NCBI GenBank assembly: GCA_028820845.1
Contig: JAPPII010000061.1
Coordinates: forward strand, 65,889 to 129,888
Length of the DNA: 64,000 nucleotides
Direction of reading: 5' to 3'
Source of the DNA: Candidatus Poribacteria bacterium
Lineage (GTDB): Bacteria; Poribacteria; WGA-4E; WGA-3G
Part shown: one piece after another, positions 25,556 to 60,639 of the stretch
How the letters are laid out: every line of letters begins with the position of its first letter
How positions within the stretch are numbered: the stretch's first letter is position 1
Translations under genes and position numbers: made by a program
The notes under the pieces: generated by a model
The model's input: only the letters and a program-made list of their open reading frames with translations
What the model was told of the DNA's origin: nothing
The model's database searches: none

Positions 25556-25996
25556 ATGTTGCAGAGACATCGACAAGTTCTCATTCTACTTGTAGGACTA
25601 TTGTATGTTTATTCGGTATGCCCGCTTCTATGCTCGGCTTTTGAACAGAAGTTCTGTCACGATGGATCTCAAAAGGTCCTGCCCGGAACTGTAGAAGTCC
25701 AATCAAGCTGCTGCCGGAGTACCAAGACAGGCGCAGCGGATGGAGCCGAAATACCGTCGGAAAGCGGTAAATTGTGTTGCTCGACCAATTTAGAACTTGT
25801 GATTCCAGATGACAGGCACAACACGTCCGAATTCCGTGAATTGATCGGACGGTCGCTCGTCTCAATCCTTCCTATCTCAGCGACTTTACCTATCACACCG
25901 TCGGAGTCACTCCAAACGCTCCGCATACCTTTAATTTCCACGTTTTTCCCCGACCACTCTCTATCCCGTAGAGGTCCTCCATCTATCCTGTCTTAG
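25556..25996 (+). CDS. hypothetical Cys-rich membrane-anchored or secreted protein
   Basis: 146 aa ORF with an N-terminal hydrophobic segment containing CPLLC, then SSCCRS and KLCCST pairs. I recognised no family. Its coding status is supported only by the promoter and its position. Confidence 0.3.
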   Translation: MLQRHRQVLILLVGLLYVYSVCPLLCSAFEQKFCHDGSQKVLPGTVEVQSSCCRSTKTGAADGAEIPSESGKLCCSTNLELVIPDDRHNTSEFRELIGRSLVSILPISATLPITPSESLQTLRIPLISTFFPDHSLSRRGPPSILS

Positions 25997-26183
25997 GTGA
26001 GTTTCCAAAAAATTCCTGAAGCATTCACCTATCCTTTATTACTATTACCAATACTTTTACATATCGTTTTCCCGCGTTCTCTTTGAGTGAAAATTTGTGC
26101 CGGGAACTGCTAATAGATCTGTAGTGAGAAGTCTTGTGTCTTGCTGCGCTACAATATTTTATGGATGGTATAAATTACAAATT

Positions 26184-27233
26184 ATGAAAATGCGTTTGTT
26201 TTTCTGCGTGATGTTGTTCAGTTGGGTTTTTGTCTCTTTCGGATTCGCACAAGAGAGTTGCCCAGCTTGAAGCAATCCCGTCTTACCGCCAAGCGGTATG
26301 ATGAGTGAAGTCAGTTTGGCTTCAAAAGAGATAGAGCAATTTCAAGTAAATGTCAATATGTTGGTTTCGCCTGATGCACGAGGTGGGCATCGAGCGTCAA
26401 CAGGGCTGTCTGCAGCAGGAGAGATAATAGATGCTCCTTTGCATAGACACCGTGTGGCGTTGAGTACTTACCGGATTGATGTTGGGTTACAATACTTGCT
26501 TAACGATCAATGGATGTTGCAGGCAAATGTTCCGTATGCGGTCAAAGACCAAAGAGCAAGCATTGAGTGGATTGATCCGGTGACTACCGAAGATAAGCAA
26601 GCCATTTTGCGGAGTAGAGACATCCATCATCGGAATGAAACCTATACCGGGCTTGCGGATTCAGATTTGTTCTTAGGCTATAAGTTTCGTGGGCTTTTTA
26701 AAGCAGGTGATATATTGTTTGCCCGGTTAGGCACGACAATTCCAACCGGTAGAACAGAAGAAAATCCATGGAAACTTGGGGATGCCGGCATCGAACACCT
26801 CCATATCCAATTCGGCACTGGTACCTTTAACCCAATTGTTAATTTGCGATACAGTTTACCTCTCTATCGGGGTATGATGATCACTGCTTCGACACGTGGC
26901 ACGTTTCCGTTCTATGAAAATAGCAAGACGTATCGAGGTCCAGTGGAGTTAAGCTATACAGCCGGTTTTATGTATCGTCTCTTTGATTGGCTTTCATTTA
27001 ATGGAAACTATCTCGGATTTTATCAATCCGCTGCCATTTGGGATGGGGAGCGTGATATTAATACCGGACTGCGTTATAGCATGGCAGCACTTGGTATGTC
27101 CTTGGCAACATTAGATGGCATTGTTGTGTCTGCCAACGTTATGTTTCCACTGACGCAAGAGACTCTTTATGATGAAGGTGATGCGATTGAATTTGGCAAT
27201 TTGGTTTCTTTGACCACAACCTACTCATTTTAA
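26184..27233 (+). CDS. outer-membrane beta-barrel protein; the signal peptide is joined to the barrel through an in-frame TGA (candidate selenocysteine codon, or a disrupted gene)
   Basis: ATG at 26184 encodes MKMRLFFCVMLFSWVFVSFGFAQESCPA, followed by TGA at 26268-26270. The same frame then continues SNPVLPPSG into the track ORF 26298..27233. That ORF has no signal peptide of its own and ends in the OMP-type ...TTTYSF. Confidence 0.5.
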
Positions 27234-27334: not shown

Positions 27335-27967
27335 ATGAAAACGAAGTTGACGCGGCGAATCATCGCATCTTTCTTGGCAGTTCTAACTGTGCTGCTGTTC
27401 TCGATCTTTTCGCTTAATGCGGAGGAAGCGCACAAAGAACATGAGGCTCATCAGCATGGTAATCACATGGCTGCTGATGACGACAAAGTACGTTGTGTAG
27501 TTGATGGCATGATGATGAAGCCTTCGGCAATGGTTAAAGTTGAACAGGACGGAAAAGTCTACTATTTCTGCAACGACATGCAGGCAGAGATGTTTAAGGC
27601 GGATCCAGATAAGTTCCTCCAAACGATTTCAGTAGGAAATTTGACTTTCGATCTCAACGTGTTAACTACGGATGCTTATAAAGGAATGATGTCTCACATG
27701 GGAATGGGAGGCATGATAAAAGCCGATGAGATTAAGGGAAAAACACACTATTTCAGTGTGTACCCGATACAAGGTCACGGAGAGGCTACGTTAGGCGATG
27801 TGAAGCTCGCCCTTCAGGTTACCAATGCCGAAGGGGAGACGAAGATGACATTGCTGAAATATGGTAAAATGACTCGCACCTACGAAGGGTTTATCGCTAT
27901 GCCAACGGGTGATGAACACAAGGTTCGCATTCGGGTGACGAGTCCTGCTGTTAAAATTTCACTTTAG
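27335..27967 (+). CDS. periplasmic YHS-domain metal-binding protein with a Met/His-rich Ig-like C-terminal domain
   Basis: 210 aa ORF with a signal peptide and a His-rich stretch (HKEHEAHQHGNH). It has the YHS/TRASH signature (KVYYFCNDMQAEMFKADPDKF) and MMSHMGMGGM. Confidence 0.7.
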   Translation: MKTKLTRRIIASFLAVLTVLLFSIFSLNAEEAHKEHEAHQHGNHMAADDDKVRCVVDGMMMKPSAMVKVEQDGKVYYFCNDMQAEMFKADPDKFLQTISVGNLTFDLNVLTTDAYKGMMSHMGMGGMIKADEIKGKTHYFSVYPIQGHGEATLGDVKLALQVTNAEGETKMTLLKYGKMTRTYEGFIAMPTGDEHKVRIRVTSPAVKISL

Positions 27968-28068: not shown

Positions 28069-29427
28069 ATGATGCGTAAAGTTAGTGTGCTTTACCAAGT
28101 CGCAGTCGTCATTATTGGAAGTGTGCTGATGTTTGGTATTCTGGTACAAATGGAGGCATACGGAATGACGCAGACAGTGCCAACGCCGGAGCAAACTGAT
28201 GGGACGACGCTGTTTGCTGAGACGCTTGAACTGCCAAGTTTAATTCGGGCTGCTGTTGAGCGAAGTCCAAAAGTTAAAGCTGCAAAAGCGCGGTGGCAGG
28301 CGACAATTGAGCAATACCTGCAAGTAACAGCATTGCCTGATCCGATGTTCATGTATGGTTACTTTTTGCGAAGCGTGGAGACGCGCGTGGGGCCTCAGCG
28401 TCATCGGGTTAGTTTTTCACAGACATTTCCGTACCCTGGTACGCTTGATACGGCAGGGGAGGTCATCAAGAAGGCAATTGAGATTGAGCGAGTCAAGCAC
28501 GAACAGGTGATACGTGATCTTATTGTTGAATTGAAACTGGGTTACCACGAGTTGGCATATCTCCAACGGGCAGTCGAGTTGACGCGACAGAATCACGAAC
28601 TGGTAGCCTCTATTCTCACGATTGCCACCACTCGTTATGCCGAAGGCAAGGCTGTGCTCAATGATGTCCTGAATGCACAGAGCCAACTCGCGCAATTGGA
28701 ATATGATCTTATCCTGCTGGAGGAGTTACAACGCGTTGAACATGCAAACATCACAGGAATTCTATCGATTCCTTCAGCAACGGCACTGGGTCCGACAATG
28801 CCTGTTCCGTACGAACCGCTTGATGTAGGATTGGTTGATATAGAGAAACAAGCATTGTCAAAACGGCAGGAATTACGGATTGCCGGATTAAGCATTGAGA
28901 AAGCTAGCGAGGGGATTGCACTTGCAGAACTTCAAACCAAACCCATGCTTAAGCTTGATTTAATGACAATAGAAACGGGTAAAGCCTTGATGCAGGACAC
29001 CCTTGGTAGTGGTAAAAATCCGTTCACCATCGGTTTTGGTATAACAATTCCGTGGTCGGATCTAAAGAATAGTAGCAAGGTTCGAGAAGCTCAGCAAAAT
29101 CATGAGGTCGTTAAGGCGAACAAGCATTCCCTTGAGGATACAACGCGGGTTGCCCTCCGAAAGATTTATTTTCGACTTGAGAACGCGCGACGGCTCGTTG
29201 AACTCTATGAGACCACGCTTATCCCACAAGCAGGTACTGCTATTGAAGTTGCTGAGACATGGCACCAAGAAGGTCCCAAAAGCATTACTGGGTTTCTTGA
29301 GACGCAGAGCGTCTGGTTGAATTTTAATCTCGCTCGCCTGCGTGCGATTGCGGACTATCAGCAGAACCTCGCTCGGTTAGAGCAGCTCGTCGGGGGAAGG
29401 ATTGATGATTCACAGACTACGCAGTAG
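28069..29427 (+). CDS. TolC-family outer-membrane efflux protein (CusC-like)
   Basis: 452 aa ORF with a signal peptide and two OEP repeats with coiled-coil segments (LTLEELI.AA...SP...AA......A, DYQQNLARLEQLVG). Confidence 0.8.
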   Translation: MMRKVSVLYQVAVVIIGSVLMFGILVQMEAYGMTQTVPTPEQTDGTTLFAETLELPSLIRAAVERSPKVKAAKARWQATIEQYLQVTALPDPMFMYGYFLRSVETRVGPQRHRVSFSQTFPYPGTLDTAGEVIKKAIEIERVKHEQVIRDLIVELKLGYHELAYLQRAVELTRQNHELVASILTIATTRYAEGKAVLNDVLNAQSQLAQLEYDLILLEELQRVEHANITGILSIPSATALGPTMPVPYEPLDVGLVDIEKQALSKRQELRIAGLSIEKASEGIALAELQTKPMLKLDLMTIETGKALMQDTLGSGKNPFTIGFGITIPWSDLKNSSKVREAQQNHEVVKANKHSLEDTTRVALRKIYFRLENARRLVELYETTLIPQAGTAIEVAETWHQEGPKSITGFLETQSVWLNFNLARLRAIADYQQNLARLEQLVGGRIDDSQTTQ

Positions 29428-31105
29428 AGACAGACTGCAATATCTATTTGCTCGAATGGTTGTGTTGTTCAGACACGTTCAACGTAACGCCATTTTCAGC
29501 ACACTGTATCGCTACTTTTTTCACTATCGGGAATGTTCTGTTCCCTTATTCATCAGCCTTATGATGTTCACTATTCTGGTAGGTGGATGTGCGAATCATC
29601 AACTGGAAACGTACCAAGAATTGCGTGACACTGCGTTAACGCAACCAGTATATTACTATACGGAGATAGAAGAGAAGATTGCTGATGCTGAGAACGAACC
29701 GATTGTGGAACCGGACCCGTTTCTCAGCGAAATTGAAGCAGAGGTGTTGAAATATCAGAAAGAGTGGCAAGCGCGATTAGAAAGTGAGACACCGATGCCA
29801 AATCTGTTTTACGATGTTTCAACAGACCCTGTGAAAGCTTATCGTCAATTGGCAGCGTCTCCTGAAGCAGCGCAGGCGCGGCTTGCTGAGCCGATTACGT
29901 TGGAACTCCTTGTGGCATTCGGGTACGAGTGGAACCCAGGGTTGAAATCTATCCGAGAAAAAATTCGGGCGATACTGAAAAGATATCCGCAGGCTGCTTA
30001 CTTAGAGAACGTGTTACGCCAGTATAACGCCTTCACAAAACAACTGGATACGAAAGTTGGACCGAAACAGCATAAAGAGATGATGGCAATGAAATTTCCG
30101 TTCCCGGGGACCTTAGCATTAAAAGGACAGATTATTACTGAGGATGTACTAATTGCGGAAAAAGAGTTTGAAATCGCTCTGCGTGATCTGGTGACCGAAA
30201 TCAGGTTAGCTTACTACGATTATCTTTTTGTTACTGAGGCGATCCGTATTAACGAAGAAAATCAAAAATTGCTGGAGCAGATGATTGCTATTGCTCAGAC
30301 AAAGTTTCGCGTAGGACGGGGCAAATATTCAAACGTTATTATGGCGCAGGTAGAGTTATCGAAATTGGCGAATACAATTATTACGCTCGAACAACAGCGG
30401 GAGACTGTTATTGCGCGTCTTAATACGTTGTTGAACGTTTCTGCGGATTTGCCGTTAGGAGTTCCAGTGCTAATTGAAGAGAGTAGCGTTATACCTACTT
30501 TGGCTGAGTTGTATCCGTTATCAGTTGAGAAACGTCAGGAAATCCAAAAACAGAAGTTGACAATCAGTAAGATGGGTTTGGTGGTGGAAATGGCGAAGCA
30601 AATGACATATCCTGACCCGACTCTCGGTCCGAGTTACTTTGAAAGCCGGAGTATGGGAGACTTAAAACACAAAGAAAAAATGCCGATGACATTTTCCACG
30701 AGACGTACATTGAATCCAGCAAATACGGCATGGTTCGCACATCGAGGTTCGTATATCCATGAAATGGATGTCAAGATTGAAGCGATGACGCATCAGGTTG
30801 AGAAACTCGAAAGCGATCTTCGCTTTGTTGTGAAAAAACATCATTTCGCTATGGAAACAGCAAATCGGAGTATTCGGCTCTATCGACAGACGCTGCTGCC
30901 GCAGGCACGGCAGGCGTTGGATGCCTCGAACACGGCTTACCAAGCGGCACAAATTGACTTTTTGAGTTTTCTTGACGCGCAACGTACTTTATTAAATTTG
31001 AGGATTGAAGAACAGCGAGCATTGCGCGATTATCGCCAACATCTCGCCCAGTTAGAACAGGCAGTTGGGATAATATTACCAAAGCATCCATTGACTCGAG
31101 AATAG
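29402..31105 (+). CDS. second TolC-family outer-membrane efflux protein (lipoprotein type); start uncertain
   Basis: 567 aa ORF with a lipobox ILVGGC about 60 codons in. It has OEP repeats and a C-terminal DYRQHLAQLEQAVG. The track start overlaps the upstream gene by 26 nt, and the true start may be an internal Met. Confidence 0.7.
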   Translation: MMIHRLRSRDRLQYLFARMVVLFRHVQRNAIFSTLYRYFFHYRECSVPLFISLMMFTILVGGCANHQLETYQELRDTALTQPVYYYTEIEEKIADAENEPIVEPDPFLSEIEAEVLKYQKEWQARLESETPMPNLFYDVSTDPVKAYRQLAASPEAAQARLAEPITLELLVAFGYEWNPGLKSIREKIRAILKRYPQAAYLENVLRQYNAFTKQLDTKVGPKQHKEMMAMKFPFPGTLALKGQIITEDVLIAEKEFEIALRDLVTEIRLAYYDYLFVTEAIRINEENQKLLEQMIAIAQTKFRVGRGKYSNVIMAQVELSKLANTIITLEQQRETVIARLNTLLNVSADLPLGVPVLIEESSVIPTLAELYPLSVEKRQEIQKQKLTISKMGLVVEMAKQMTYPDPTLGPSYFESRSMGDLKHKEKMPMTFSTRRTLNPANTAWFAHRGSYIHEMDVKIEAMTHQVEKLESDLRFVVKKHHFAMETANRSIRLYRQTLLPQARQALDASNTAYQAAQIDFLSFLDAQRTLLNLRIEEQRALRDYRQHLAQLEQAVGIILPKHPLTRE

Positions 31106-31210: not shown

Positions 31211-33106
31211 ATGTATAAAAATTTCTACCTTGCAACCGCACTGATAATTACCGTGCTTTTTATATTCGGCTGTAATCAGCAAGAGAACGCTGAAATGGCG
31301 CATCGTGTTAGTGAAGAACATGACTCAGTATCGAAGGACCTATCGGGTATGGATGAACACGCTGACCATGCGTCAATGGTAGCATCCTCAGATGAAGCAA
31401 AAGCGATTCGGTTCTGGACTTGTGTTATGCACCCCACGGTCAAAATGCCAGAACCCGGTAGTTGTCCGGTTTGTAAGATGGATCTGATTCCTATCTACGA
31501 AGGTTCAGGGTTAGAACTCACTGAACAACAGAAGGCGTTAATTCCGGTGCGCACCGAGCCGGTCGTTTTCCGAGAGGTATCGCGTGAAATCCGAACCGTT
31601 GGTGTTTTGGATTATAACGAGACGCGTATGGCTTATGCTTCAACACGAATCTCCGGATGGATTGAGGACTTGCACATTGACTTTACCGGTATCAAGGTGC
31701 GTGAGGGGGACGAACTTTTGTCTATCTACAGCCCGGAATTAGTCACAGCACAAGAAGAATATCTGACAGCACTTAAAAGTATTGAGGAACTTCAGAATAC
31801 AGAATACGTGCAACTTCGCAAATCAGTTGAACAAACACTTGTCGCTGCGAAGTCCAAACTTGAATTGTACGGATTAACCTTAAACCAGATTGAGGATATT
31901 CGTAACCGTGGGGAAGTCAGTACAACTTTACCACTGTTCGCTCCGATGGCTGGTACCGTAGTTCACATGAACGTGAGCCAAGGTCAACATGTAAACAGAG
32001 GTATGAATCTTTACCGTATTGCGGATCTCAGTAGTTTATGGATTATGGCGGATGTTTACGAATATGAACTGCCGTGGATTTACATGGGGCAAGCGGTTGA
32101 AATTACGACACAGTCAATGCCTGGGCAAACATTTTCTGGCAAAGTTACTTACATTTATCCATTCTTTGACACACAAACACGGACCCAGAAAGTTCAAATA
32201 GAGGTGCCTAATCCGACTGGACGACTCCGTCCAGGGATGTATGTAACGCTTCAGATAAAACCGACACTTGCAGAAATCTATACCCATGGCGCGATCTCTC
32301 AAGCACCGTATGCCTGCCCGATGCATCCATGGATTACTTCTGAACATCCCACTGAATGTGAAATATGTGGTATGGATCTGGAGCTGACACATTCCGATAT
32401 CATGGGGTCTGAAGTAGAGGGAAAGTGGGTCTGCCCGATGCATCCTGAGGTACAATCTGAGGAATTCAGTGAATGCTCTATCTGCGGTATGGATCTCGTT
32501 GAAAGAGCGGAGGTATCTGCACCGGCAGAAACTCCAGCAACTGTTTGGACGTGTCCGATGCATCCTGAAGTGCAGTCTGAAGAATTCGGAGAATGTCCTA
32601 TCTGTGGCATGGATCTCGTTGAAAAACAGCCGACGGCGACAGGAACTGACACCCATTTCCATACACATCAACCAACCGTCCATTCAGATCTGCCACCACT
32701 GATTTTCAAATATGTATGTCCTGACCATCCCGATGAGTATGCGACTGTACCGGGGCTATGTTCGCGTGATGGAAAGCCACTTCTTATGACCGGTGAAGTC
32801 TTAACTGTTCCTAAGAGTGCGGTCATTAACACGGGTTTACGGAAGATAGTCTTCGTGGATCGTGGCAAATCGGGTTATGAACAGATTGAAGTTGAGGTGG
32901 GCCCTGAAGCTTGGGGAACATCGGATGGTTCGCAAACCAAACGCCGATACTATCCCATCGTTAGTGAGCTTACCCCTGGCGATATGGTTGTTACGCATGG
33001 CAATTTCCTGATAGACTCACAGACGCAATTGACGGGTTCTGCATCAGGTGCTTATGGTGGCGCGCTCGGCGGTGAAGAATCAAAACCGCCTGTCCATCAA
33101 CATTAA
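31211..33106 (+). CDS. cusB: RND efflux periplasmic adaptor (CusB-like) with five heavy-metal-binding Zn-ribbon-like modules
   Basis: 631 aa ORF with an HlyD/MFP core (barrel-sandwich, hairpin, beta-barrel). It also carries WTCVMHPTVKMPEPGSCPVCKMDL, YACPMHPWITSEHPTECEICGMDL, WVCPMHPEVQSEEFSECSICGMDL, WTCPMHPEVQSEEFGECPICGMDL and a degenerate YVCPDHPDEYATVPGLCSRDGKPL. Confidence 0.8.
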   Translation: MYKNFYLATALIITVLFIFGCNQQENAEMAHRVSEEHDSVSKDLSGMDEHADHASMVASSDEAKAIRFWTCVMHPTVKMPEPGSCPVCKMDLIPIYEGSGLELTEQQKALIPVRTEPVVFREVSREIRTVGVLDYNETRMAYASTRISGWIEDLHIDFTGIKVREGDELLSIYSPELVTAQEEYLTALKSIEELQNTEYVQLRKSVEQTLVAAKSKLELYGLTLNQIEDIRNRGEVSTTLPLFAPMAGTVVHMNVSQGQHVNRGMNLYRIADLSSLWIMADVYEYELPWIYMGQAVEITTQSMPGQTFSGKVTYIYPFFDTQTRTQKVQIEVPNPTGRLRPGMYVTLQIKPTLAEIYTHGAISQAPYACPMHPWITSEHPTECEICGMDLELTHSDIMGSEVEGKWVCPMHPEVQSEEFSECSICGMDLVERAEVSAPAETPATVWTCPMHPEVQSEEFGECPICGMDLVEKQPTATGTDTHFHTHQPTVHSDLPPLIFKYVCPDHPDEYATVPGLCSRDGKPLLMTGEVLTVPKSAVINTGLRKIVFVDRGKSGYEQIEVEVGPEAWGTSDGSQTKRRYYPIVSELTPGDMVVTHGNFLIDSQTQLTGSASGAYGGALGGEESKPPVHQH

Positions 33107-33115
33107 AGAGACATT

Positions 33116-33250
33116 TTAGTGTTCTGTCACATCTAAACTGAGAGGCAGTTTGTAGTAGGGAAACCATTCATTGCCCGTTCCTGACGTGCGATAAATCGCA
33201 CTACTACGAACCGGGGTTTCCCCATTATTTGAAGGTTGACAGACTATTAG
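33116..33250 (-). mobile_element. MITE-like structured repeat, copy 1 (inverted relative to copy 2 at 60666..60796)
   Basis: About 88% identical by eye to the reverse complement of 60666-60796. It has imperfect terminal inverted repeats (TAGTGTTCTGTCA.../...TGACAGACTAnTA) and nested internal hairpins. Confidence 0.55.
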
Positions 33251-33325
33251 TGTTCTGTCCACTCTAAAATGAGGGTAAGAATTATTTAGAACACGCTTAG
33301 ATTGCCCACTGCGTCGTGGTTTTTT

Positions 33326-33349
33326 GTAGGAGCGAGCTGTGCTCGCGAC
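33326..33349 (+). repeat. GTAG-headed REP-like hairpin
   Basis: GTAGG-AGCGAGC-TGT-GCTCGCG-AC. Confidence 0.45.
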
Positions 33350-33398
33350 TGCTATACTTCAACTTTGACCTGACAAAGCATTAGGTTCAAAACATGCT

Positions 33399-33422
33399 GT
33401 AGGAGGGGTTTGTAACCCCGAC
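33399..33422 (+). repeat. GTAG-headed REP-like hairpin
   Basis: GTAGGA-GGGGTT-TGT-AACCCC-GAC. Confidence 0.45.
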
Positions 33423-33504
33423 AGAGTGTCTCATTAAAATTATAACATTCACTATAAGAGACAATGCGATTGGCAGAGCACGCTTATAAGAAGTGGGTGG
33501 CAAT

Positions 33505-36500
33505 ATGATTAACCGAGTTATTGAAATCTGCATGAAAAATCGCCTCTTGGTATTGGTTATCTTTGTCTTTGTCACCATGGCGGGTTGGTGGGCATTGAAC
33601 CGCACACCAATTGATGCTATGCCGGACATCGGTGAAAACCAAGTTATTGTCTTTGCAGATTGGCCCGGAAGAAGCCCAAGGGATATCGAGGATCAAGTTA
33701 TCTATCCGTTGAGTATTACCATGCTTGGGATTCCCGATGTCAAAGATGTTCGCTCGACTTCAATGTTTAGCTTTGGTTATATCAATATAATCTTTAAAGA
33801 TGATGTCGATTTTTATTGGGCTCGCACACGGGTATTGGAGCGAATGAATCTCGCCCAAAAAGACATGCCGGAGGGGGTTGTACCGGTCCTCGGTCCCGAT
33901 GCAACGGGGGTCGGACAGGTGTTTTGGTACACTGTTGAGAACGGATATTATTGCCCTAAGCATCCGACAGAACGCTATGCCGATCCGGGCACCTGTCCAG
34001 AAGATGGGGAGGAACTTATCGCCTCCAATTTAGAACTTCATGAACTTCGGACGCTCCAAGACTGGACGGTTCGTTACTATCTCGCCTCTGCTGATGGCGT
34101 TTCCGAGATCGCTTCGGTTGGTGGATACGTCAAACAGTATCAGATCGACATCGATCCAAACACTTTGTTAGCGTATGATGTGCCGCTGTCGGCGGTTTAC
34201 AACGCCGTCCGAGGGAGCAACCTTGATGTTGGTGCTAAGGTTATTGAGGAAGGCGGGATGGAATTCCTGATTCGGGGCTTGGGTTTTATCAAAAGCATTG
34301 AGGACATAGAAAACATCGTTGTTAAGGAACACAATGGCGTTCCGATCTACGTCAAAAACCTTGGGACAGTTAGCGAAGGTCCCGATTTTAGGCGTGGTGC
34401 TTTAGACAAAGCGGGCATTCCAGCGACCGGTGGTGTCGTACTCATGCGATACGGTGATAATCCACTGCGTGTTATTGAGAACGTCAAGGCGAAAATAGCA
34501 GAACTCACACCTGGACTTCCACCGGGGGTCCGAATTGTTCCGTTCTATGACCGGAGTGATCTCATTCACCGTGCAACGGACACGCTGAAGGAAACGCTGA
34601 CAGAGGAAATCATCGTTGCGGCAATTGTTATCCTGCTATTCTTGGGACAAGTTTCAAGTAGCCTGATAATAGCACTTGTCTTGCCGATGGGAGTTCTGCT
34701 TTCGTTTGTGGGCATGCGAATTATTGGTCTACCATCAAATATCATGTCGATGGGTGGTATTGCCATCGCGATTGGTGTCATGGTGGATGCCGGTATTGTG
34801 ATGACGGAAAATATCGCGAGACTTTTGCGGGAACCGCATCCTGGTGAAAGCAAGCTGCAAGTTGCAACCCGTGCTGCCAAGGAGGTGGGGCCCCCTATCT
34901 TCTTTGCAATGCTTATTGTTATTGTTGCGTTCATACCTGTTTTCTCTCTTACGGGTCAGGCGGGTAAGCTTTTCAAGCCGCTTGCCTATACAAAAACATT
35001 TGCGATGCTCGGTGCAGCCCTCTTGGCGATTAGTTTTGTACCCGTTTTAGCGTCGTTTCTAATCACAGATCCGACGCGGACCCGGACAGGGACGGTTTCC
35101 AAGCGAGTGTCACAACTTCTGGCGTTGCTCGGTTGGCCTCTGAGAAAGTTAGCGGATGGGATTACTTGGTTGCTCAGAACCATCTATCGTCCGGTTATCC
35201 AGTTGGCTGTAAAAAATATTTGGACAAAACTCGCGGTTGTTGTTTTGGCAGTGTTGATTTTTATCGCGAGTATACCACTAACGCCTTTCTATAAGAATAT
35301 TGGGCAAGAATTCATGCCGCCACTTAACGAAGGGGCACTGCTATTTATGCCGGTGCTGCTCCCGGGTGCCTCGATTACGCAAGCCAAAGATGTGATGACA
35401 AAACAGGATTTGATTATGAATCGATTCCCGGAGGTTTCACTCGTCGTTGGAAAGTTAGGGCGCGCGACAACAGCAACCGATCCCGCTCCAATTGGCATGT
35501 TTGAAACCATTGTCAATATAGTTGATCCAGCAGAATGGCCCCGGCGTGCTGTTAAACATAGCGCGACGACGGGGCTTGTGGATCACCTCGTTCAACGCTT
35601 AAAACGTGGCGGTCTTATGAGTGAGGAACACGCCGGTCATATTAACGCTGATTTTTCGGATAACATTGCTAAAGCCGCCATAAAGCGATTTGATACCTTG
35701 GCGACAACGTACCACAACTCTTATCTGTCAATTGACGAGCGCGAAAAACTTTATCGGGTCTGGTTGTTACGGATCCTTTTGGAAGAGCTTCTCTCTGAAG
35801 AACGGATGGCGGGAATGGGGTTGGAACAGGTCAAGATTGGCGAATCTGAGACTGAAGTGAAACTGCATCAGATCGCCGAGGAAATTGAGCCGACCCTCGA
35901 GCATAAGACTTACTTCCGTACAAAAAACCGCAACGAACTTATCACCGAGCTGACAGAGGCGACCCGAATGCCGGGCGTTTCACCTATTATGACGCAGCCC
36001 ATCCGCAATCGCGTGGATATGCTCGCAACGGGTATACAAACCCCAATCGGAATCAAAGTGTTTGGTAAGGACCTCGCGAAGATTGAAGAGATTGCCGTAC
36101 GGATTGAGCAGGAGCTCCTTAAACTTGAAGGGGCGCAGGGTCCCTATGCCGAACGCATTGGAAATAAGCCGCACCTTGAATTTCACATCAACAGAGAGGC
36201 GGCGGCGCGCTACGGCATCCAAATCCGAACAGTCCAGCAAATCATCATGACAGCAATCGGTGGTATGAATTTAACCTATACCGTTGAGGGGCGGGAGCGG
36301 TTTCCGATTCGTATCCGCTACATGAGGGAGCTACGGGATAATGTTGAAGCACTCAAACGTGTTCTCGTGCCAGCACCGAAAGGGCTTCATATTCCGCTTG
36401 AGCAACTTGTAACGATTGAAAGACGACCGGGACCAGCGAAGATTGCAAGCGAAAATACACTACTCTTTTCTCGCGTCTTTTGTGATGTAGATGTTGACAC

Positions 36501-37173
36501 CATTGGGCTGGTTGACTTCGTGGCGTTAGCGCAAAAGACGCTTGATGAAAAGATTAAACCGACTTTACCGCAAGGCTACTTCTACGCTTTTAGTGGTCAG
36601 TATGAAGCTGAACTGGAAGCTCGCAGTCGGTTGGCAATTGTCGTCCCGGTGTGTATTGCTGTCATCTTCATATTGCTATACCTCCAGTTCAAGTCGCCTT
36701 CTGCGATGTTTTCAATCTTCCTTGCGATTCCTTTCGCATTTATCGGTGGCATGTGGATGCAGTGGTTGATGCAATACATACCAGAGGCACTCGGCGGTGG
36801 TTATGCCATTAAATACAGTACGGCAGTTTGGGTGGGGTATATAGCCTTATTTGGCATAGCTGTAGAAGATGGCATAGTTTTAATTGAATACCTACTGGAA
36901 CGCGTCCGAGGCGGTGAACCGATTGACGAAGCCGTGATTAATGCTGGCTTATTGCGCGTCCGTCCGATCGTCATGACCACAGCAACGACAATTTTGGCGT
37001 TATTACCAATCATGTTAGCAGAAATTAGCACGACTACCGGGGCGGAATTGATGAAGCCCATTGCAGTGCCTACTTTTGGCGGTATGGTTTCTGCAACAGT
37101 GGCTAACCTTATCTTAGCCCCTGTTTTATTTTCTCTTTTCTATCCGCTTGAGCACTGGGTTCGCCAACGATAG
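33505..37173 (+). CDS. cusA: CusA/CzcA-family heavy-metal RND efflux pump, enlarged (about 1220 aa)
   Basis: The ATG at 33505 gives MINRVIEICMKNRLLVLV.... It has 12-TM RND architecture with two large periplasmic loops. Extra segments are YYCPKHPTERYADPGTCPEDGEELI and a helical segment of ~150 aa in the second loop. The GTG at 33493 in the track is less likely to be the start. Confidence 0.85.
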   Translation: MINRVIEICMKNRLLVLVIFVFVTMAGWWALNRTPIDAMPDIGENQVIVFADWPGRSPRDIEDQVIYPLSITMLGIPDVKDVRSTSMFSFGYINIIFKDDVDFYWARTRVLERMNLAQKDMPEGVVPVLGPDATGVGQVFWYTVENGYYCPKHPTERYADPGTCPEDGEELIASNLELHELRTLQDWTVRYYLASADGVSEIASVGGYVKQYQIDIDPNTLLAYDVPLSAVYNAVRGSNLDVGAKVIEEGGMEFLIRGLGFIKSIEDIENIVVKEHNGVPIYVKNLGTVSEGPDFRRGALDKAGIPATGGVVLMRYGDNPLRVIENVKAKIAELTPGLPPGVRIVPFYDRSDLIHRATDTLKETLTEEIIVAAIVILLFLGQVSSSLIIALVLPMGVLLSFVGMRIIGLPSNIMSMGGIAIAIGVMVDAGIVMTENIARLLREPHPGESKLQVATRAAKEVGPPIFFAMLIVIVAFIPVFSLTGQAGKLFKPLAYTKTFAMLGAALLAISFVPVLASFLITDPTRTRTGTVSKRVSQLLALLGWPLRKLADGITWLLRTIYRPVIQLAVKNIWTKLAVVVLAVLIFIASIPLTPFYKNIGQEFMPPLNEGALLFMPVLLPGASITQAKDVMTKQDLIMNRFPEVSLVVGKLGRATTATDPAPIGMFETIVNIVDPAEWPRRAVKHSATTGLVDHLVQRLKRGGLMSEEHAGHINADFSDNIAKAAIKRFDTLATTYHNSYLSIDEREKLYRVWLLRILLEELLSEERMAGMGLEQVKIGESETEVKLHQIAEEIEPTLEHKTYFRTKNRNELITELTEATRMPGVSPIMTQPIRNRVDMLATGIQTPIGIKVFGKDLAKIEEIAVRIEQELLKLEGAQGPYAERIGNKPHLEFHINREAAARYGIQIRTVQQIIMTAIGGMNLTYTVEGRERFPIRIRYMRELRDNVEALKRVLVPAPKGLHIPLEQLVTIERRPGPAKIASENTLLFSRVFCDVDVDTIGLVDFVALAQKTLDEKIKPTLPQGYFYAFSGQYEAELEARSRLAIVVPVCIAVIFILLYLQFKSPSAMFSIFLAIPFAFIGGMWMQWLMQYIPEALGGGYAIKYSTAVWVGYIALFGIAVEDGIVLIEYLLERVRGGEPIDEAVINAGLLRVRPIVMTTATTILALLPIMLAEISTTTGAELMKPIAVPTFGGMVSATVANLILAPVLFSLFYPLEHWVRQR

Positions 37174-38100: not shown

Positions 38101-39078
38101 ATGTGTTTTCAAATCAACCGCCAATTCCGTGCGAATATGTTGTTAGCATTTGTCGTTTTCATAGTAAGCGTGCCATGGATTGGTAACGCCGATGAAGCGG
38201 AGTTATCGGATCCAAAACTAATGGCTATCTTTCCGGAAGCGGAAAAATTCGTTCTGAGAAATGCTACACTTACAGCGGACCAGATTGCTGTAATCGAAAA
38301 AGAACTTGGTGCTAAACTTCTGGCGGAAGATCAGAAACAGGTTTTCTATATTCCGATCAGTGCTGAAAAGAGACCTATGGGCTTGGTATTGTTTGCGAAT
38401 GCTGACGGACCAGGCGGTGTTATTAAAGGTGCTGTCGGACTGGATATGACGGGAAAAGTGGTGAAAGTAGAAATCTACGAGCATCAGGAATCCAACGCGA
38501 TTGCGAGTCCAGAATCTCTCGGACAATTCATCGGTATGGGTATAGACGACACTTTCAAGGTTGGGGTGGACGTTGAGACTATTAACGGGCATGAGGATGC
38601 TGCAAACGCAGTCGCTTTGCTGCCTAAAAAGACCTTGGTGATGAGTTATGCTCTCTTTTCAAAAAAGAAATCGGAACCGGAGGTAGAGCGGACACCAGAA
38701 CCTGATACGCCAGCGCAAGATATGCCTGAAGTCGAAGACCTTAAAGCACTCATGATGTTGATGATAGATGACTATTTCGTGGTCGTTGACTACTTCGATG
38801 AAAAGGAGAGCAAGACGAAAGCGATTGCAGCAGCGAAACGGCTCGCCAGATATGCAAAGAGCATTTCAAACTTTGAACCACCGAAAAATGCAGATCAGAC
38901 GGAAGAGTATGTCTACCTGCAGGACAAGTTTAGCGAAACGCTCCTTAAATTTGCTGAAGCACTTGAGAGGGAAGGTATTTCTGACGAAACGCGAAAGCAG
39001 TGGGATGCTGTTGTTGAATTAATCAATCAGGCGCACCTTCGGTTTAGCGAGGAGGAGATTGACTTGGATACGTATTAG
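38101..39078 (+). CDS. periplasmic protein with an FMN_bind-like (NosR/RnfG-type) domain and a helical C-terminal domain
   Basis: 325 aa ORF. The stretch IFPEAEKFV...VFYIPISAE..PMGLVLFANADGPGGVIKGAVGLDMTGKVVKVEIYEHQES resembles the FMN_bind fold. No clear flavinylation Thr motif is present. Confidence 0.4.
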   Translation: MCFQINRQFRANMLLAFVVFIVSVPWIGNADEAELSDPKLMAIFPEAEKFVLRNATLTADQIAVIEKELGAKLLAEDQKQVFYIPISAEKRPMGLVLFANADGPGGVIKGAVGLDMTGKVVKVEIYEHQESNAIASPESLGQFIGMGIDDTFKVGVDVETINGHEDAANAVALLPKKTLVMSYALFSKKKSEPEVERTPEPDTPAQDMPEVEDLKALMMLMIDDYFVVVDYFDEKESKTKAIAAAKRLARYAKSISNFEPPKNADQTEEYVYLQDKFSETLLKFAEALEREGISDETRKQWDAVVELINQAHLRFSEEEIDLDTY

Positions 39079-59832: not shown

Positions 59833-60639
59833 ATGTTTAATTTCAGCAACGAACAGATTGAACGCTACAGCCGACATATCATCCTCAAAGAGGTCGGCGG
59901 GATGGGGCAGACGCGGCTCCTCGAATCGAAAGTGCTGCTCATTGGTGCGGGTGGGCTCGGTTCTCCTGTTGGGGTCTATCTTGCTGCTGCCGGTGTCGGC
60001 ACGCTCGGCATCATTGATGATGATGTCGTTGACCTCAGCAACTTGCAACGCCAGATTTTACACGGTACCAGTGACATCGGTGTTCCGAAGACGAAATCCG
60101 CAGAAGCCACTATCACGGAGATGAATCCCGATGTTAAGGTGATACCCTACAACGAGCGCATTACCTCAGAAAACGCCTTCCGAATTCTGGAGCAATACGA
60201 TCTGATTGTGGATGGATGCGACAACCTCCCGACGCGCTACCTCCTCAACGATGCCTCCGTTATGTTAGGTAAACCGATTGTGCACGGAAGTATCTTCCAG
60301 TTTGAAGGACAGGTCACCGTTCTATATCCGGGTAAGGGACCGTGTTATCGATGCCTCTATCCCGAACCGCCGCCACCGGGGATGGTACCGAGCTGTCAGG
60401 AAGCCGGTGTCTTTGGTGTGTTGCCGGGCATTATCGGCACGATCCAAGCCGTTGAAGCGATTAAAGTTCTCTTGGACATCGGCGAACCCTTAATCGGAAG
60501 CCTTCTGCTTTTCAACGCGCTCACGATGGATTTCAAACGGTTGAAACTCCGTCAAGATGACGGTTGTCCGATGTGCGGTGAAAATCCCACAATCCACGAG
60601 TTAATTGATTATGAGGAATTCTGTCAAGTGCGATGGTAG
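59833..60639 (+). CDS. moeB: ThiF/MoeB/HesA-family adenylyltransferase (E1-like), no rhodanese domain
   Basis: 268 aa ORF with RYSRHIIL, GAGGLGSP, DDDVVDLSNLQRQ, and the Zn-binding CxxC pairs (CYRC, CPMC). Confidence 0.85.
   Translation: MFNFSNEQIERYSRHIILKEVGGMGQTRLLESKVLLIGAGGLGSPVGVYLAAAGVGTLGIIDDDVVDLSNLQRQILHGTSDIGVPKTKSAEATITEMNPDVKVIPYNERITSENAFRILEQYDLIVDGCDNLPTRYLLNDASVMLGKPIVHGSIFQFEGQVTVLYPGKGPCYRCLYPEPPPPGMVPSCQEAGVFGVLPGIIGTIQAVEAIKVLLDIGEPLIGSLLLFNALTMDFKRLKLRQDDGCPMCGENPTIHELIDYEEFCQVRW

What the first reader, a model, noticed from the sequence alone, without database searches (positions are those of the whole stretch)
26184..27233. An in-frame UGA links a signal peptide to an outer-membrane barrel and creates a C-P-A-U (CxxU) motif in the copper-efflux island
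- A textbook Sec signal peptide (MKMRLFFCVMLFSWVFVSFGFA/QE) starts at 26184. After ...SCPA it hits TGA at 26268-26270.
- The same frame continues without another stop (SNPVLPPSG) into the 311 aa ORF at 26298. That ORF ends in an OMP-type terminal Phe but has no export signal of its own.
- Reading the UGA as selenocysteine puts Cys-Pro-Ala-Sec a few residues after the predicted signal-peptidase site. CxxU/UxxC is the classic redox or metal-binding selenoprotein motif.
- Exactly 11 nt after the UGA there is a hairpin, CUUACCGC-CAA-GCGGUAUG, with one U.U mismatch. This is where a minimal bacterial SECIS stem-loop sits in E. coli fdhF, although the 3 nt loop here is atypical.
- The gene lies between a Cys-rich ORF and a YHS protein, upstream of cusCBA-like genes. 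A periplasm-facing Cys/Sec pair on an outer-membrane barrel would be an unusual Cu(I)/Ag(I)-handling or thiol-selenol redox device.
- The alternative is a nonsense-disrupted gene or an assembly error.
Basis: partly seen in the sequence, partly recalled or inferred. Interest (0 to 1): 0.72.

Follow-up and report, generated by a model that had tools for sequence, protein, structure and literature searches.

The report
Uncatalogued selenocysteine outer-membrane barrel family
The in-frame UGA is almost certainly a selenocysteine codon in a secreted outer-membrane channel protein, and it reveals a widespread bacterial selenoprotein family (mostly with two selenocysteines, UxxU) in metal-handling loci that gene callers truncate everywhere and that current selenoprotein catalogues do not list.

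Summary
ATG 26184, TGA 26268-26270 and the 311-aa ORF share one frame.

The TGA is not an error:
- All 66 copies in Poribacteria assemblies have TGA there, never TAA or TAG.
- A paralog clade has a second TGA exactly where this gene has Cys (UxxU).
- Of 78 readable metagenomic relatives (GC 29-73%), 53 are UxxU, 6 CxxU and 19 CxxC. Cys therefore aligns with the UGA.
- UGA is still a stop here: 9 of 40 window ORFs and 55 of 140 family genes end in TGA.

RNA evidence: a 7-bp hairpin with a GU triloop (26307-26323) follows the UGA in 34/43 Sec lineages and 0/13 Cys lineages (background 4%). All 7 pairs covary, and it is the gene's only stretch without synonymous variation.

The protein is a confidently modelled barrel (pLDDT 95) whose closest folds are 12-stranded channels (FapF, COG4313). 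No Pfam or NCBIfam model matches it, and the 2026 list of 119 selenoprotein families lacks it.

Neighbours across phyla are secreted HMA-thioredoxin fusions, MerTP, P-type ATPases, YHS and cusCBA. This points to soft-metal capture or relay by the N-terminal selenol pair; that function is inferred.

SelA, SelB and SelD are reported for a Poribacteria genome carrying both paralogs, but were not checked for this genome.

The parts
26184..27233 (+). Full selenoprotein coding sequence: 349 codons plus TAA stop. Signal peptide, Q-E-S-C-P-A-U motif, Pro-rich tether, outer-membrane barrel ending in Phe.
   Evidence: Single frame through the TGA. Same architecture in 140 reconstructed homologs. Cys homologs are continuous ORFs.
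26184..26249 (+). Sec-type signal peptide MKMRLFFCVMLFSWVFVSFGFA, with predicted SPase I cleavage GFA|QES.
   Evidence: 13/16 hydrophobic residues in the h-region. The motif sits 19-26 residues after Met1 in most members (modal 25; longer values come from over-extended start calls), usually as AXA|Q. Cleavage before Gln fits the Bacteroidetes Q-rule paper for the Cys forms (title and abstract of PMC5837995, as listed). No signal-peptide predictor was available.
26259..26270 (+). C-P-A-U motif: Cys codon TGC at 26259-26261, Sec codon TGA at 26268-26270.
   Evidence: Second position TGA in 66/66 copies. First position TGT/TGC in 58 and TGA in 8. In metagenomes UxxU 53, CxxU 6, CxxC 19.
26279..26303 (+). 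Hairpin H1. Inner helix ACCGC/GCGGU with loop CAA; outer helix CGUC/GAUG.
   Evidence: RNAalifold consensus. Codons 33-38 are nearly free of synonymous change except loop codon 36. Native arms beat cross-lineage chimeras, -15.6 vs -13.0 kcal/mol. An H1-like helix also exists in Cys forms.
26307..26323 (+). Hairpin H2, GAAGUCA-GUU-UGGCUUC: probable SECIS core (7-bp stem, GU-containing triloop), 36 nt after the UGA.
   Evidence: Present in 34/43 Sec lineage representatives, 0/13 Cys lineage representatives, 3.6-4.0% background. 7/7 pairs change on both sides and 0/500 shuffles reach the observed values. It is the only 6-codon window of the gene with zero synonymous variation.
26298..27233 (+). 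The truncated ORF that gene callers report (311 aa): the barrel domain with invariant His/Asp/Trp residues (H31, H51, H111, D121, W248; H110, H167, H169 nearly invariant).
   Evidence: AF2 pLDDT 95.4, pTM 0.89. The best PDB folds are the 12-stranded channels FapF and COG4313 Pput2725, TM 0.6-0.7. Conservation.
25556..25996 (+). Upstream small membrane-anchored Cys-rich protein (CPLLC at the end of the TM helix, two CC pairs, C-terminal RGPP).
   Evidence: Conserved on the same strand about 700 nt upstream in 55/55 Poribacteria CxxU loci. Alignment. No Pfam or NCBIfam hit.
27335..27967 (+). Secreted YHS-domain, His/Met-rich protein.
   Evidence: PF04945, 29.4 bits (just below the 30.3 cut-off). 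Follows the barrel in 36/55 Poribacteria loci.
28069..31105 (+). Two tandem outer-membrane efflux (CusC/TolC-type) genes: 28069-29427 and 29402-31105.
   Evidence: PF02321 OEP, E 4.5e-42 and 1.3e-29. Syntenic in 35/55 loci.
31211..37173 (+).
   Evidence: PF16576 and PF19335 x4 for CusB. CusB is syntenic in 33/55 loci.

Best explanation
Window 26184-27233 is one gene for a secreted selenoprotein.

How it is made: the UGA at 26268-26270 is decoded as selenocysteine by SelB/tRNA-Sec, directed by a structured mRNA segment just downstream. That segment has H1 at 26279-26303 and H2 at 26307-26323. H2, a 7-bp stem with a GU triloop, is the likely SelB-binding core.

What the product is: after Sec-dependent export and cleavage at GFA|QES, the mature protein starts Q-E-S-C-P-A-U. 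A Pro-rich tether of about 25 residues then leads into an outer-membrane barrel that carries a cluster of invariant histidines.

The family: this gene belongs to a multi-phylum family (Poribacteria, Planctomycetota and Acidobacteriota carry Sec forms; the low-GC Cys forms are probably Bacteroidota). The N-terminal pair is UxxU in most lineages, CxxU in this clade and CxxC in others.

Proposed function (inferred): the periplasm-facing selenol/thiol pair captures a soft metal ion (Cu(I), Ag(I) or Hg(II)) or exchanges it with periplasmic partners. The partners are an HMA-thioredoxin fusion in most lineages, and the Cys-rich membrane protein and YHS protein here. The pair then passes the ion to or from the His-lined barrel, possibly by inserting into the lumen as the N-terminal segments of FapF and COG4313 channels do. 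The thioredoxin partner would keep the pair reduced.

Shown: the recoded UGA with Cys/Sec alignment, the Sec-specific covarying hairpin, the barrel fold, and the gene neighbourhoods.
Inferred: actual Sec insertion, which hairpin binds SelB, the metal identity, and the direction of transfer.
For: UGA conservation:
- TGA in 66/66 Poribacteria copies. The Cys codon is replaced by TGA in 8/8 paralogs.
- Metagenomes give UxxU 53, CxxU 6, CxxC 19, and every in-frame stop at the motif is TGA.
- More UxxU forms in a hydrothermal-vent metagenome, Acidobacteriota and Planctomycetota contigs.

Cys/Sec alignment:
- Full-length Cys homologs carry CPAC-SNP, CAGC-RNP or CAAC-RNP.
- In two large searches none of the 240 listed homologs includes the N-terminus.

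UGA is still a stop:
- 9/40 window ORFs and 55/140 family genes end in TGA.

RNA element:
- H2 occurs in 34/43 Sec lineages vs 0/13 Cys lineages, against a 3.6-4% background.
- 7/7 pairs covary.
- Synonymous variation is at its minimum in codons 37-50.
- Native hairpins are more stable than chimeras, p<0.001.

Sec machinery:
- SelA, SelB and SelD are listed for Ca. Poribacteria WGA-3G (PMC5649159 Table S4). That genome holds L046 and L058.

Fold:
- AF2 pLDDT 95.4. Best matches are FapF and COG4313, whose N-terminal segments occlude or plug the lumen (PMC4493636, PMC5557850).

Metal context:
- HMA+thioredoxin fusion directly upstream in at least 20 of 56 lineages.
- MerTP above its equivalog cut-off, a RicR/CsoR-like repressor and a P1B ATPase.
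- A barrel-HMA fusion, P0149.
- YHS and cusCBA in this window.
Against: - No direct evidence of selenium incorporation.
- selA, selB, selC and selD were not examined in the genome this window comes from. None lies in the 64 kb window.
- H2 lies 36 nt after the UGA (loop about 43 nt). From memory, that is further than the 11-nt spacing of E. coli fdhF and slightly outside the 16-37 nt range of the published bacterial SECIS model.
- H1 sits at the canonical place, but its CAA loop lacks the usual G.
- 9 of 43 Sec lineages lack H2 and use a different hairpin.
- Cys forms also keep a weaker covarying hairpin, so part of the structure may have a role other than Sec insertion.
- The functional model rests on gene neighbourhood and analogy.
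- The UxxU paralog in Poribacteria sits next to an aldo/keto reductase and an ABC transporter, not metal genes.
Confidence: 0.85

Rival explanations
1. The TGA is a nonsense mutation or a sequencing/assembly error, so the gene is broken in this genome.
For: A single in-frame stop is what a pseudogene or an error looks like in one sequence. Two genuinely decayed extra copies do exist in other Poribacteria genomes (L053 and L064).
Against: - TGA is at the same codon in 66/66 independent assemblies, including complete long-read chromosomes.
- The same is seen in other phyla.
- The codon is never TAA or TAG.
- The flanking protein is under strong conservation, and the signal peptide is kept upstream.
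Confidence: 0.01
2. UGA is a real stop, giving two products: a 28-residue secreted peptide, and a barrel protein started at the downstream Met 26298 (coupled or re-initiated translation).
For: This is how every annotation pipeline calls it. In this window an ATG lies 9 codons after the stop.
Against: - The barrel would have no signal peptide and could not reach the outer membrane.
- The downstream Met is not conserved: Leu, Ile or absent, and only 63/121 Sec forms have any Met within 14 residues.
- Cys-form homologs are single continuous ORFs with the same N-terminus.
- The paralogs would need two consecutive stops.
Confidence: 0.03
3. UGA is read through, but not as selenocysteine. The downstream hairpins would stimulate near-cognate suppression (Trp, Cys or Arg), or the organisms reassign UGA.
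For: Stable hairpins downstream of stop codons can stimulate read-through. H2 lies further from the UGA than in textbook SECIS elements. Some gene callers translated these TGAs as Trp (P0194, P0196).
Against: - The UGA aligns specifically with redox/metal-binding Cys in a CxxC motif, which is the signature of Sec.
- UGA terminates 9/40 genes of this window and 55/140 genes of the family, which excludes reassignment.
- The hairpin has the GU-containing apical loop typical of bacterial SECIS and is absent from Cys forms.
- SelA, SelB and SelD are reported in a genome carrying both paralogs.
Confidence: 0.04
4. It is a true selenoprotein, but the Sec/Cys pair is a redox centre rather than a metal site. 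Examples would be a thiol-selenol oxidoreductase or peroxidase-like function recycled by the thioredoxin partner, or a regulated diselenide lock that gates the channel.
For: CxxU, UxxC and UxxU are classic redox motifs (review PMC13188914). The most conserved neighbour contains a thioredoxin domain with WCGPC. Plug-gated relatives exist (FapF).
Against: - The partner also always carries an HMA metal-binding domain.
- Other neighbours are MerTP, a P1B ATPase, a RicR/CsoR-like repressor, YHS, cusCBA and ZnuABC.
- One member is fused to an HMA domain.
- The two readings are not exclusive: metal binding and redox state are coupled for such pairs.
Confidence: 0.25

Closest known systems
Bacterial selenoproteins with CxxU/UxxC/UxxU motifs, especially the soluble UxxU metal-binding (HMA-like) selenoprotein NF041115 and the MerT/CopZ fusion selenoprotein NF045683
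   Same: Sec replaces Cys of a CxxC-type soft-metal or redox motif. Two UGAs sit 9 nt apart in many members. The genes are truncated or missed by gene callers. They are linked to Hg/Cu handling genes.
   Different: The motif here sits on an unstructured N-terminal tether of an outer-membrane beta-barrel, not in an HMA or MerT fold. No NCBIfam selenoprotein model matches the barrel. NF041115 matches only the HMA domains of neighbours or of the P0149 fusion.
Known outer-membrane selenoproteins: TonB-dependent receptor of the FCYXU motif type (NF049945) and the GSU2204 MtrB/PioB-family barrel (NF041027), as listed in PMC13188914
   Same: Exported beta-barrel proteins of the outer membrane that contain Sec.
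   Different: They are different barrel families: the 22-strand TonB-dependent receptor class and the large MtrB/PioB porin-cytochrome class (strand counts from general knowledge). This family models on 12-stranded channels, has an N-terminal motif, mostly has two Sec, and gets no hit to those models.
COG4313 / Pfam PF13557 (Phenol_MetA_deg) outer-membrane channels, structure Pput2725 (PDB 4RL8)
   Same: Similar barrel fold of similar size (TM 0.59-0.70). In Pput2725 the N-terminal segment before strand 1 occludes the lumen (PMC4493636).
   Different: 13% identity. The Pfam score is below threshold (14.9 vs 22 bits). COG4313 channels are implicated in uptake of hydrophobic molecules and have no Cys/Sec motif or His cluster. 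The gene context differs.
FapF amyloid-secretion channel (PDB 5O65, 5O67)
   Same: Best structural match (TM 0.60-0.70, E about 1e-12). FapF is a barrel gated by an N-terminal plug.
   Different: 13-15% identity and no significant sequence relationship (E 0.5). There is no coiled-coil platform, no fap operon, and a different conserved-residue pattern.
E. coli fdhF-type bacterial SECIS (from memory: hairpin 11 nt after the UGA, apical GGUC loop bound by SelB)
   Same: A stem-loop in the coding region directly 3' of the UGA, with a GU-containing apical loop. Some lineages of this family even have GGUC loops 20-23 nt after the UGA.
   Different: In this window the GU-loop hairpin starts 36 nt after the UGA, with another conserved hairpin in between. 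In UxxU members, one element must serve two UGAs 9 nt apart.

Membership tests
Bacterial selenoprotein gene (Sec-decoded UGA) | In-frame UGA conserved among orthologs, with coding conservation on both sides | tested here: met
   66/66 TGA. The signal peptide upstream and the barrel downstream are conserved.
Bacterial selenoprotein gene (Sec-decoded UGA) | Homologs with Cys aligned to the UGA | tested here: met
   CPAC, CAGC and CAAC forms. Cys/TGA swap at the first motif position between paralogs.
Bacterial selenoprotein gene (Sec-decoded UGA) | SECIS-like stem-loop immediately downstream of the UGA, specific to Sec forms | tested here: met
   H2 in 34/43 Sec vs 0/13 Cys lineages. 7/7 covarying pairs. 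Synonymous-site freeze.
Bacterial selenoprotein gene (Sec-decoded UGA) | Canonical spacing and loop of the published bacterial SECIS model (recalled from memory: UGA-to-apical-loop 16-37 nt, G in the first two loop bases) | tested here: inconclusive
   H1 has the right spacing but a CAA loop. H2 has a GUU loop but lies about 43 nt from the UGA. No bacterial SECIS predictor or Rfam model was available.
Bacterial selenoprotein gene (Sec-decoded UGA) | selA, selB, selC (tRNA-Sec) and selD in the same genome | tested here: inconclusive
   None in the 64 kb window. The literature lists SelA, SelB and SelD in Ca. Poribacteria WGA-3G, which carries both paralogs. The rest of this genome could not be searched.
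Bacterial selenoprotein gene (Sec-decoded UGA) | Selenium in the protein (75Se labelling or mass spectrometry) | not testable with these tools
   Needs an experiment.
COG4313 / PF13557 outer-membrane channel | Match to the family profile above the curated threshold | tested here: not met
   14.9 bits vs the 22-bit cut-off. A few homologs carry a precomputed PF13557 hit.
COG4313 / PF13557 outer-membrane channel | 12-stranded barrel with an inserted N-terminal segment | tested here: inconclusive
   Barrel fold match TM 0.6-0.7. The strand number is taken from the matched structures, not counted on coordinates. The N-terminal segment is low-confidence in the model.
FapF secretion channel | Sequence homology, a periplasmic coiled coil and a fap operon | tested here: not met
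   Profile vs PDB gives E 0.5. No fap genes nearby.
Catalogued outer-membrane or metal selenoprotein families (NF049945, NF041027, NF041115, NF045683, NF041384) | Match of the barrel protein to the NCBIfam model | tested here: not met
   No family at E<=0.1 for the window protein (U->C) or for seven full-length Cys-form homologs scanned. The only hits, in P0149, are to its C-terminal HMA domain.
CusCFBA copper/silver efflux system component | Homology to CusC (OEP), CusF, CusB or CusA | tested here: not met
   The barrel has no OEP or other Cus domain. It is only a neighbour of cusCBA, and only in 33-35 of 55 Poribacteria loci.

The most novel reading that the evidence does not exclude
This is a previously unrecognised, multi-phylum family of outer-membrane channel selenoproteins. 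Their mature N-terminus carries a diselenol (UxxU; CxxU here) that relays soft metals (Hg, Cu, Ag) between periplasmic HMA-thioredoxin partners and a His-lined barrel. They are made with an unusual bipartite SECIS: a spacer hairpin plus a GU-triloop hairpin about 34-37 nt downstream. That element can decode two UGAs 9 nt apart.
Probability: 0.35. Interest if true: 0.88.

Novelty: new member of a known kind. Interest (0 to 1): 0.78.

Why it matters
- Catalogue: it would add a widespread family to the list of about 119 prokaryotic selenoprotein families. Most members carry two selenocysteines, which the 2026 review describes as a small subset. It is also an outer-membrane protein, of which only two families are listed.
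- Annotation: every database entry seen for the Sec forms is truncated and labelled hypothetical, and one is labelled a restriction-enzyme subunit. The family is therefore invisible to annotation-based surveys of selenium use and of metal resistance in sponges, oceans and soils.
- Chemistry: the consistent linkage to HMA-thioredoxin, MerTP, P-type ATPases and cus genes suggests that selenium chemistry is used at the cell envelope to handle mercury, copper or silver. This is directly testable with a short peptide and a barrel that models confidently.
- Recoding: the RNA data give a natural set of about 40 divergent SECIS variants that serve one or two adjacent UGAs at an unusual distance. That is useful for SECIS models, which BSepDB reports miss about 13% of selenoproteins.

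Tried and rejected
- Rfam, at gathering threshold on the whole window and at E<=10 on 26150-26450: nothing relevant.
- ARAGORN on the window and on all fetched loci: no tRNA-Sec. This is uninformative, because only small parts of the genomes were held.
- Overall folding-energy z-scores of the 45 nt after the UGA: these did not separate Sec forms from Cys forms. I replaced them with the chimera test and the position-specific H2 test.
I used the 311-aa ORF and a natural Cys-form homolog instead. Model coordinates were not exposed, so the spatial clustering of the invariant His residues could not be checked.
- BSepDB supplements: not held.
- A second round of cluster look-ups: no organism names.
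- Literature search for MerTP plus outer-membrane partners: nothing relevant.
- Lipoprotein reading of the first Cys: considered and rejected. The -1 to -3 residues (E-S before C, and Sec in that position in most members) do not fit a lipobox.
- The idea that two alternative 5' arms spaced like the two UGAs form a 'sliding' SECIS: left as speculation, because the spacing is 8 nt, not 9.
Full report
**1. The observation**

- An ATG at 26184 opens MKMRLFFCVMLFSWVFVSFGFA-QESCPA.
- A TGA sits at 26268-26270, 28 codons after the ATG.
- The same frame runs on through SNPVLPPSG into the ORF that gene finders call at 26298-27233 (311 aa, ending ...TTYSF).
- The hairpin CUUACCGC-CAA-GCGGUAUG begins 11 nt after the TGA (26282-26300).
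- Upstream lies a Cys-rich ORF (25556-25996). Downstream lie a YHS-domain protein, two OEP (CusC-type) genes, a CusB homolog with four heavy-metal-binding repeats, and a CusA-type pump (CusA itself was not scanned).

**2. The stop codon is conserved, not accidental**

A search of 5.8 billion proteins returned 120 homologs down to about 65% identity. All are called at about 250-312 aa starting after the TGA, and none has a signal peptide.

I fetched 67 loci from reference genomes. All are Candidatus Poribacteria, and many are complete long-read chromosomes.
- Translating upstream in frame shows signal peptide-QESCPA*SNPVLPPSG in the orthologs.
- It shows QES*GA*SNPAIPRGG in a 54-59% identical paralog clade.
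- At nucleotide level the second position is TGA in 66/66 copies, never TAA or TAG.
- The first position is TGT or TGC in 58 copies and TGA in all 8 paralogs.
- Five genomes carry both paralogs.
- The 'downstream Met' is often Leu or Ile, or is missing.

An assembly error or a pseudogene is excluded. Two genuinely decayed copies (L053, L064) show what decay looks like: the signal peptide or large internal parts are lost.

**3. Cys aligns with the UGA, and the family is large**

An exhaustive HMMER scan of 1.84 billion cluster representatives found 412 relatives.
- Full-length relatives carry, right after their signal peptide, CPAC-SNP, CAGC-RNP, CAAC-RNP/GNP or CPAC-QNP.
- Others begin MPRSG... 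or MIPRSGIGEV..., meaning they are cut at the same place.
- Two have Trp where code-4 callers read TGA.
- DNA for four distant members (35-44% identity; one from a hydrothermal-vent metagenome, one high-GC) shows TGA-x-x-TGA in each.

A metagenome scan gave 80 more loci with GC from 0.29 to 0.73. They split into UxxU 53, CxxU 6, CxxC 19 and 2 unreadable, and every in-frame stop at the motif is TGA.

Labelled members come from Poribacteria, Planctomycetota and Acidobacteriota. I confirmed UxxU in the latter two.

UGA still means stop in these organisms. 55 of 140 reconstructed family genes end in TGA. In this window 9 of 40 large ORFs do, including a gamma-glutamyltranspeptidase that matches its Pfam model end to end.

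**4. The RNA**

Two hairpins follow the UGA.

- Its loop base varies freely while the stem is fixed, and L062 has a compensatory G-C to A-U change.
- Across 36 lineage representatives, the hairpins after the UGA have loop centres 15-22 nt downstream in 35 cases.
- Native 5' and 3' halves fold better than chimeras built from different lineages: -15.6 vs -13.0 kcal/mol, p<0.001.
- Cys forms also keep a weaker covarying helix that uses the same 5' arm. H1 is therefore not Sec-specific.

*H2* (GAAGUCA-GUU-UGGCUUC; 26307-26323) is the discriminating element.
- A 7-bp stem with a GU-containing triloop starts 28-40 nt after the (second) UGA in 34 of 43 Sec lineage representatives and in 0 of 13 Cys lineage representatives.
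- The background is 3.6% in other windows of the same genes and 4.0% in codon-shuffled sequence. Binomial p is about 3e-41.
- Stems differ completely between lineages: GAGGCCG/CGGUCUC, GGGGCCG/UGGUCCC, GGAACCG/CGGUUCC, GAAGUUA/UAACUUC. The encoded peptides differ too.
- On 24 distinct sequences all 7 pairs show changes on both sides (35 cells). None of 500 shuffles reaches the observed values, and slid registers collapse.
- Caveat: those 24 sequences were chosen for pairing, so the 95.7% paired figure is biased. The unbiased statistic is the one.

Among 34 distinct Poribacteria orthologs the mean minor-codon fraction is 0.24, and only 10% of degenerate codons are invariant. Codons 42-47 (H2) are the only 6-codon window with no synonymous change, and codons 37-50 form the lowest stretch of the gene.

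The nine Sec lineages without H2 have one long hairpin with its apical loop at +20 to +23 (GGUC, GGG, GGA, GCG).

I conclude that the mRNA carries a Sec-specific structured element. In this window H2 is its probable SelB-binding core, and H1 may act as a spacer. If H1 is folded, the unpaired distance from the UGA to H2 is 8+3 = 11 nt, the E. coli fdhF spacing as I recall it. I note this as a curiosity only.

**5. Sec machinery**

The window holds no sel genes or tRNA-Sec. Slaby et al. 2017 report that SelA and SelB co-occur in most sponge-symbiont bins. Their Table S4 lists SelA=2, SelB=1 and SelD=1 for Ca. Poribacteria WGA-3G, the genome of my loci L046 (CxxU) and L058 (UxxU). I could not search the genome of this window itself.

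**6. The protein**

- The motif lies 19-26 residues after Met1 in most members, behind an AXA|Q-type site. In some lineages Sec would be the first mature residue (...NTALA|UPAU).
- AF2 models the 311-aa part with pLDDT 95.4 and pTM 0.89.
- A natural full-length Cys form models with pLDDT 87.9, and its first ~50 residues are of low confidence.
- The best solved folds are the 12-stranded channels FapF and COG4313 Pput2725 (TM 0.6-0.7, 13-15% identity). There is no significant sequence relationship to any solved structure.
- In both relatives the segment before strand 1 occludes or plugs the lumen.
- Invariant residues include H31, H51, H111, D121 and W248, with H110, H167 and H169 nearly invariant. 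From the strand order they lie in the upper parts of strands 1-2 and in the two long loops. This is a topological inference, not a measurement.

**7. Context and function**

In Poribacteria CxxU loci:
- The small Cys-rich membrane protein is upstream in 55/55 loci.
- YHS, the two OEP genes and CusB follow in 33-36 of 55 loci.

Across all 56 lineages:
- The commonest neighbour is a secreted HMA+thioredoxin fusion (GMxCxxC ... WCGPC). It sits directly upstream on the same strand in at least 20 lineages, of both Sec and Cys type.
- Cys-form operons add MerTP (210.8 bits vs the 180-bit equivalog cut-off), a RicR/CsoR-like repressor and a P1B ATPase.
- One member is fused to an HMA domain.
- One locus has a YHS-thioredoxin fusion with a CopY/BlaI-type repressor.
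- Others have a tyrosinase or ZnuABC nearby.

I therefore favour a soft-metal capture and relay role for the periplasmic selenol/thiol pair, with the thioredoxin partner keeping it reduced. This step is inferred. A purely redox role, or a gating role, is the main rival.

**8. Comparison with what is known**

- No Pfam or NCBIfam (June 2026) model matches the barrel.
- The May 2026 inventory of 119 prokaryotic selenoprotein families lists only two outer-membrane families: a TonB-dependent receptor with FCYXU, and the GSU2204 MtrB/PioB barrel. It lists only a few UxxU families: Prx-like, the NF041115 HMA-like metal binder and FmdB-like. None is this family.
- The main text of the BSepDB paper does not mention outer-membrane, barrel or UxxU families.
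- I cannot exclude a description in papers outside the held library.

**9. Verdict**

The gene is best filed as a new family within a known kind (bacterial selenoproteins). It has unusual features: an outer-membrane location, mostly two Sec residues, and a distal or bipartite SECIS.

Noticed in passing
window 26298-27233 (protein P0001): NCBI names the truncated product of this very gene 'restriction endonuclease subunit S', which is a clear misannotation. All other labelled family members are 'hypothetical protein'.
   Followed up: partly
L102-L139 (Cys-form loci), about 4-45 nt after the CxxC codons: Cys forms keep an RNA helix AAUCCNGC...GCNGGAUU in which the third base of a Pro codon covaries with the third base of an Ala codon about 22 nt away. 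Native vs chimera energy is -10.7 vs -8.6 kcal/mol, p about 0.02. It could be a fossil SECIS or a hairpin with another role.
   Followed up: partly
L053:5900-6100 (OZ241845.1) and L064:5900-6350 (OY730443.1): Extra, decayed copies of the barrel gene in two Poribacteria chromosomes. One has lost the signal peptide and the H2 region. The other has an internal deletion of about 150 residues.
   Followed up: partly
window 33493-37173 (CusA homolog) and 31211-33106 (CusB homolog): CusB has four PF19335 heavy-metal-binding repeats. The unusually long CusA (1226 aa) contains an insert, YYCPKHPTERYADPGTCPEDGEEL, that looks like the same motif.
   Followed up: no
window 28069-29427 and 29402-31105: Two tandem CusC/TolC-type outer-membrane factor genes that overlap by 26 nt. 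The second is called from a TTG and has a long N-terminal extension.
   Followed up: no
window 55837-58284: A sulfite/nitrite reductase (NIR_SIR domains) fused to a C-terminal TusA sulfurtransferase domain. A ThiF/MoeB-type gene follows at 59833-60639.
   Followed up: no
L037, L020 and other Poribacteria CxxU loci, 2-3 kb downstream of the barrel: About a third of Poribacteria loci lack YHS and cus downstream. Instead they have an FMN_bind-like 330-aa protein and a 510-aa protein with a diheme GEGP-type N-terminus. The window has an RnfG/FMN_bind-like gene after CusA (38101-39078).
   Followed up: partly
L153:832-4971 (Acidobacteriota) and L154:1187-5807 (Planctomycetota): The UxxU barrels sit next to a tyrosinase (a copper enzyme) plus HMA-thioredoxin plus CrcB in one phylum. 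In the other they sit next to a ZnuABC-type metal importer.
   Followed up: partly
L055-L061, L067 (Poribacteria UxxU paralog loci): The UxxU paralog has no metal genes nearby. It is flanked by an aldo/keto reductase upstream and an ABC transporter (substrate-binding protein and permease) downstream. The two paralogs may therefore serve different processes.
   Followed up: partly
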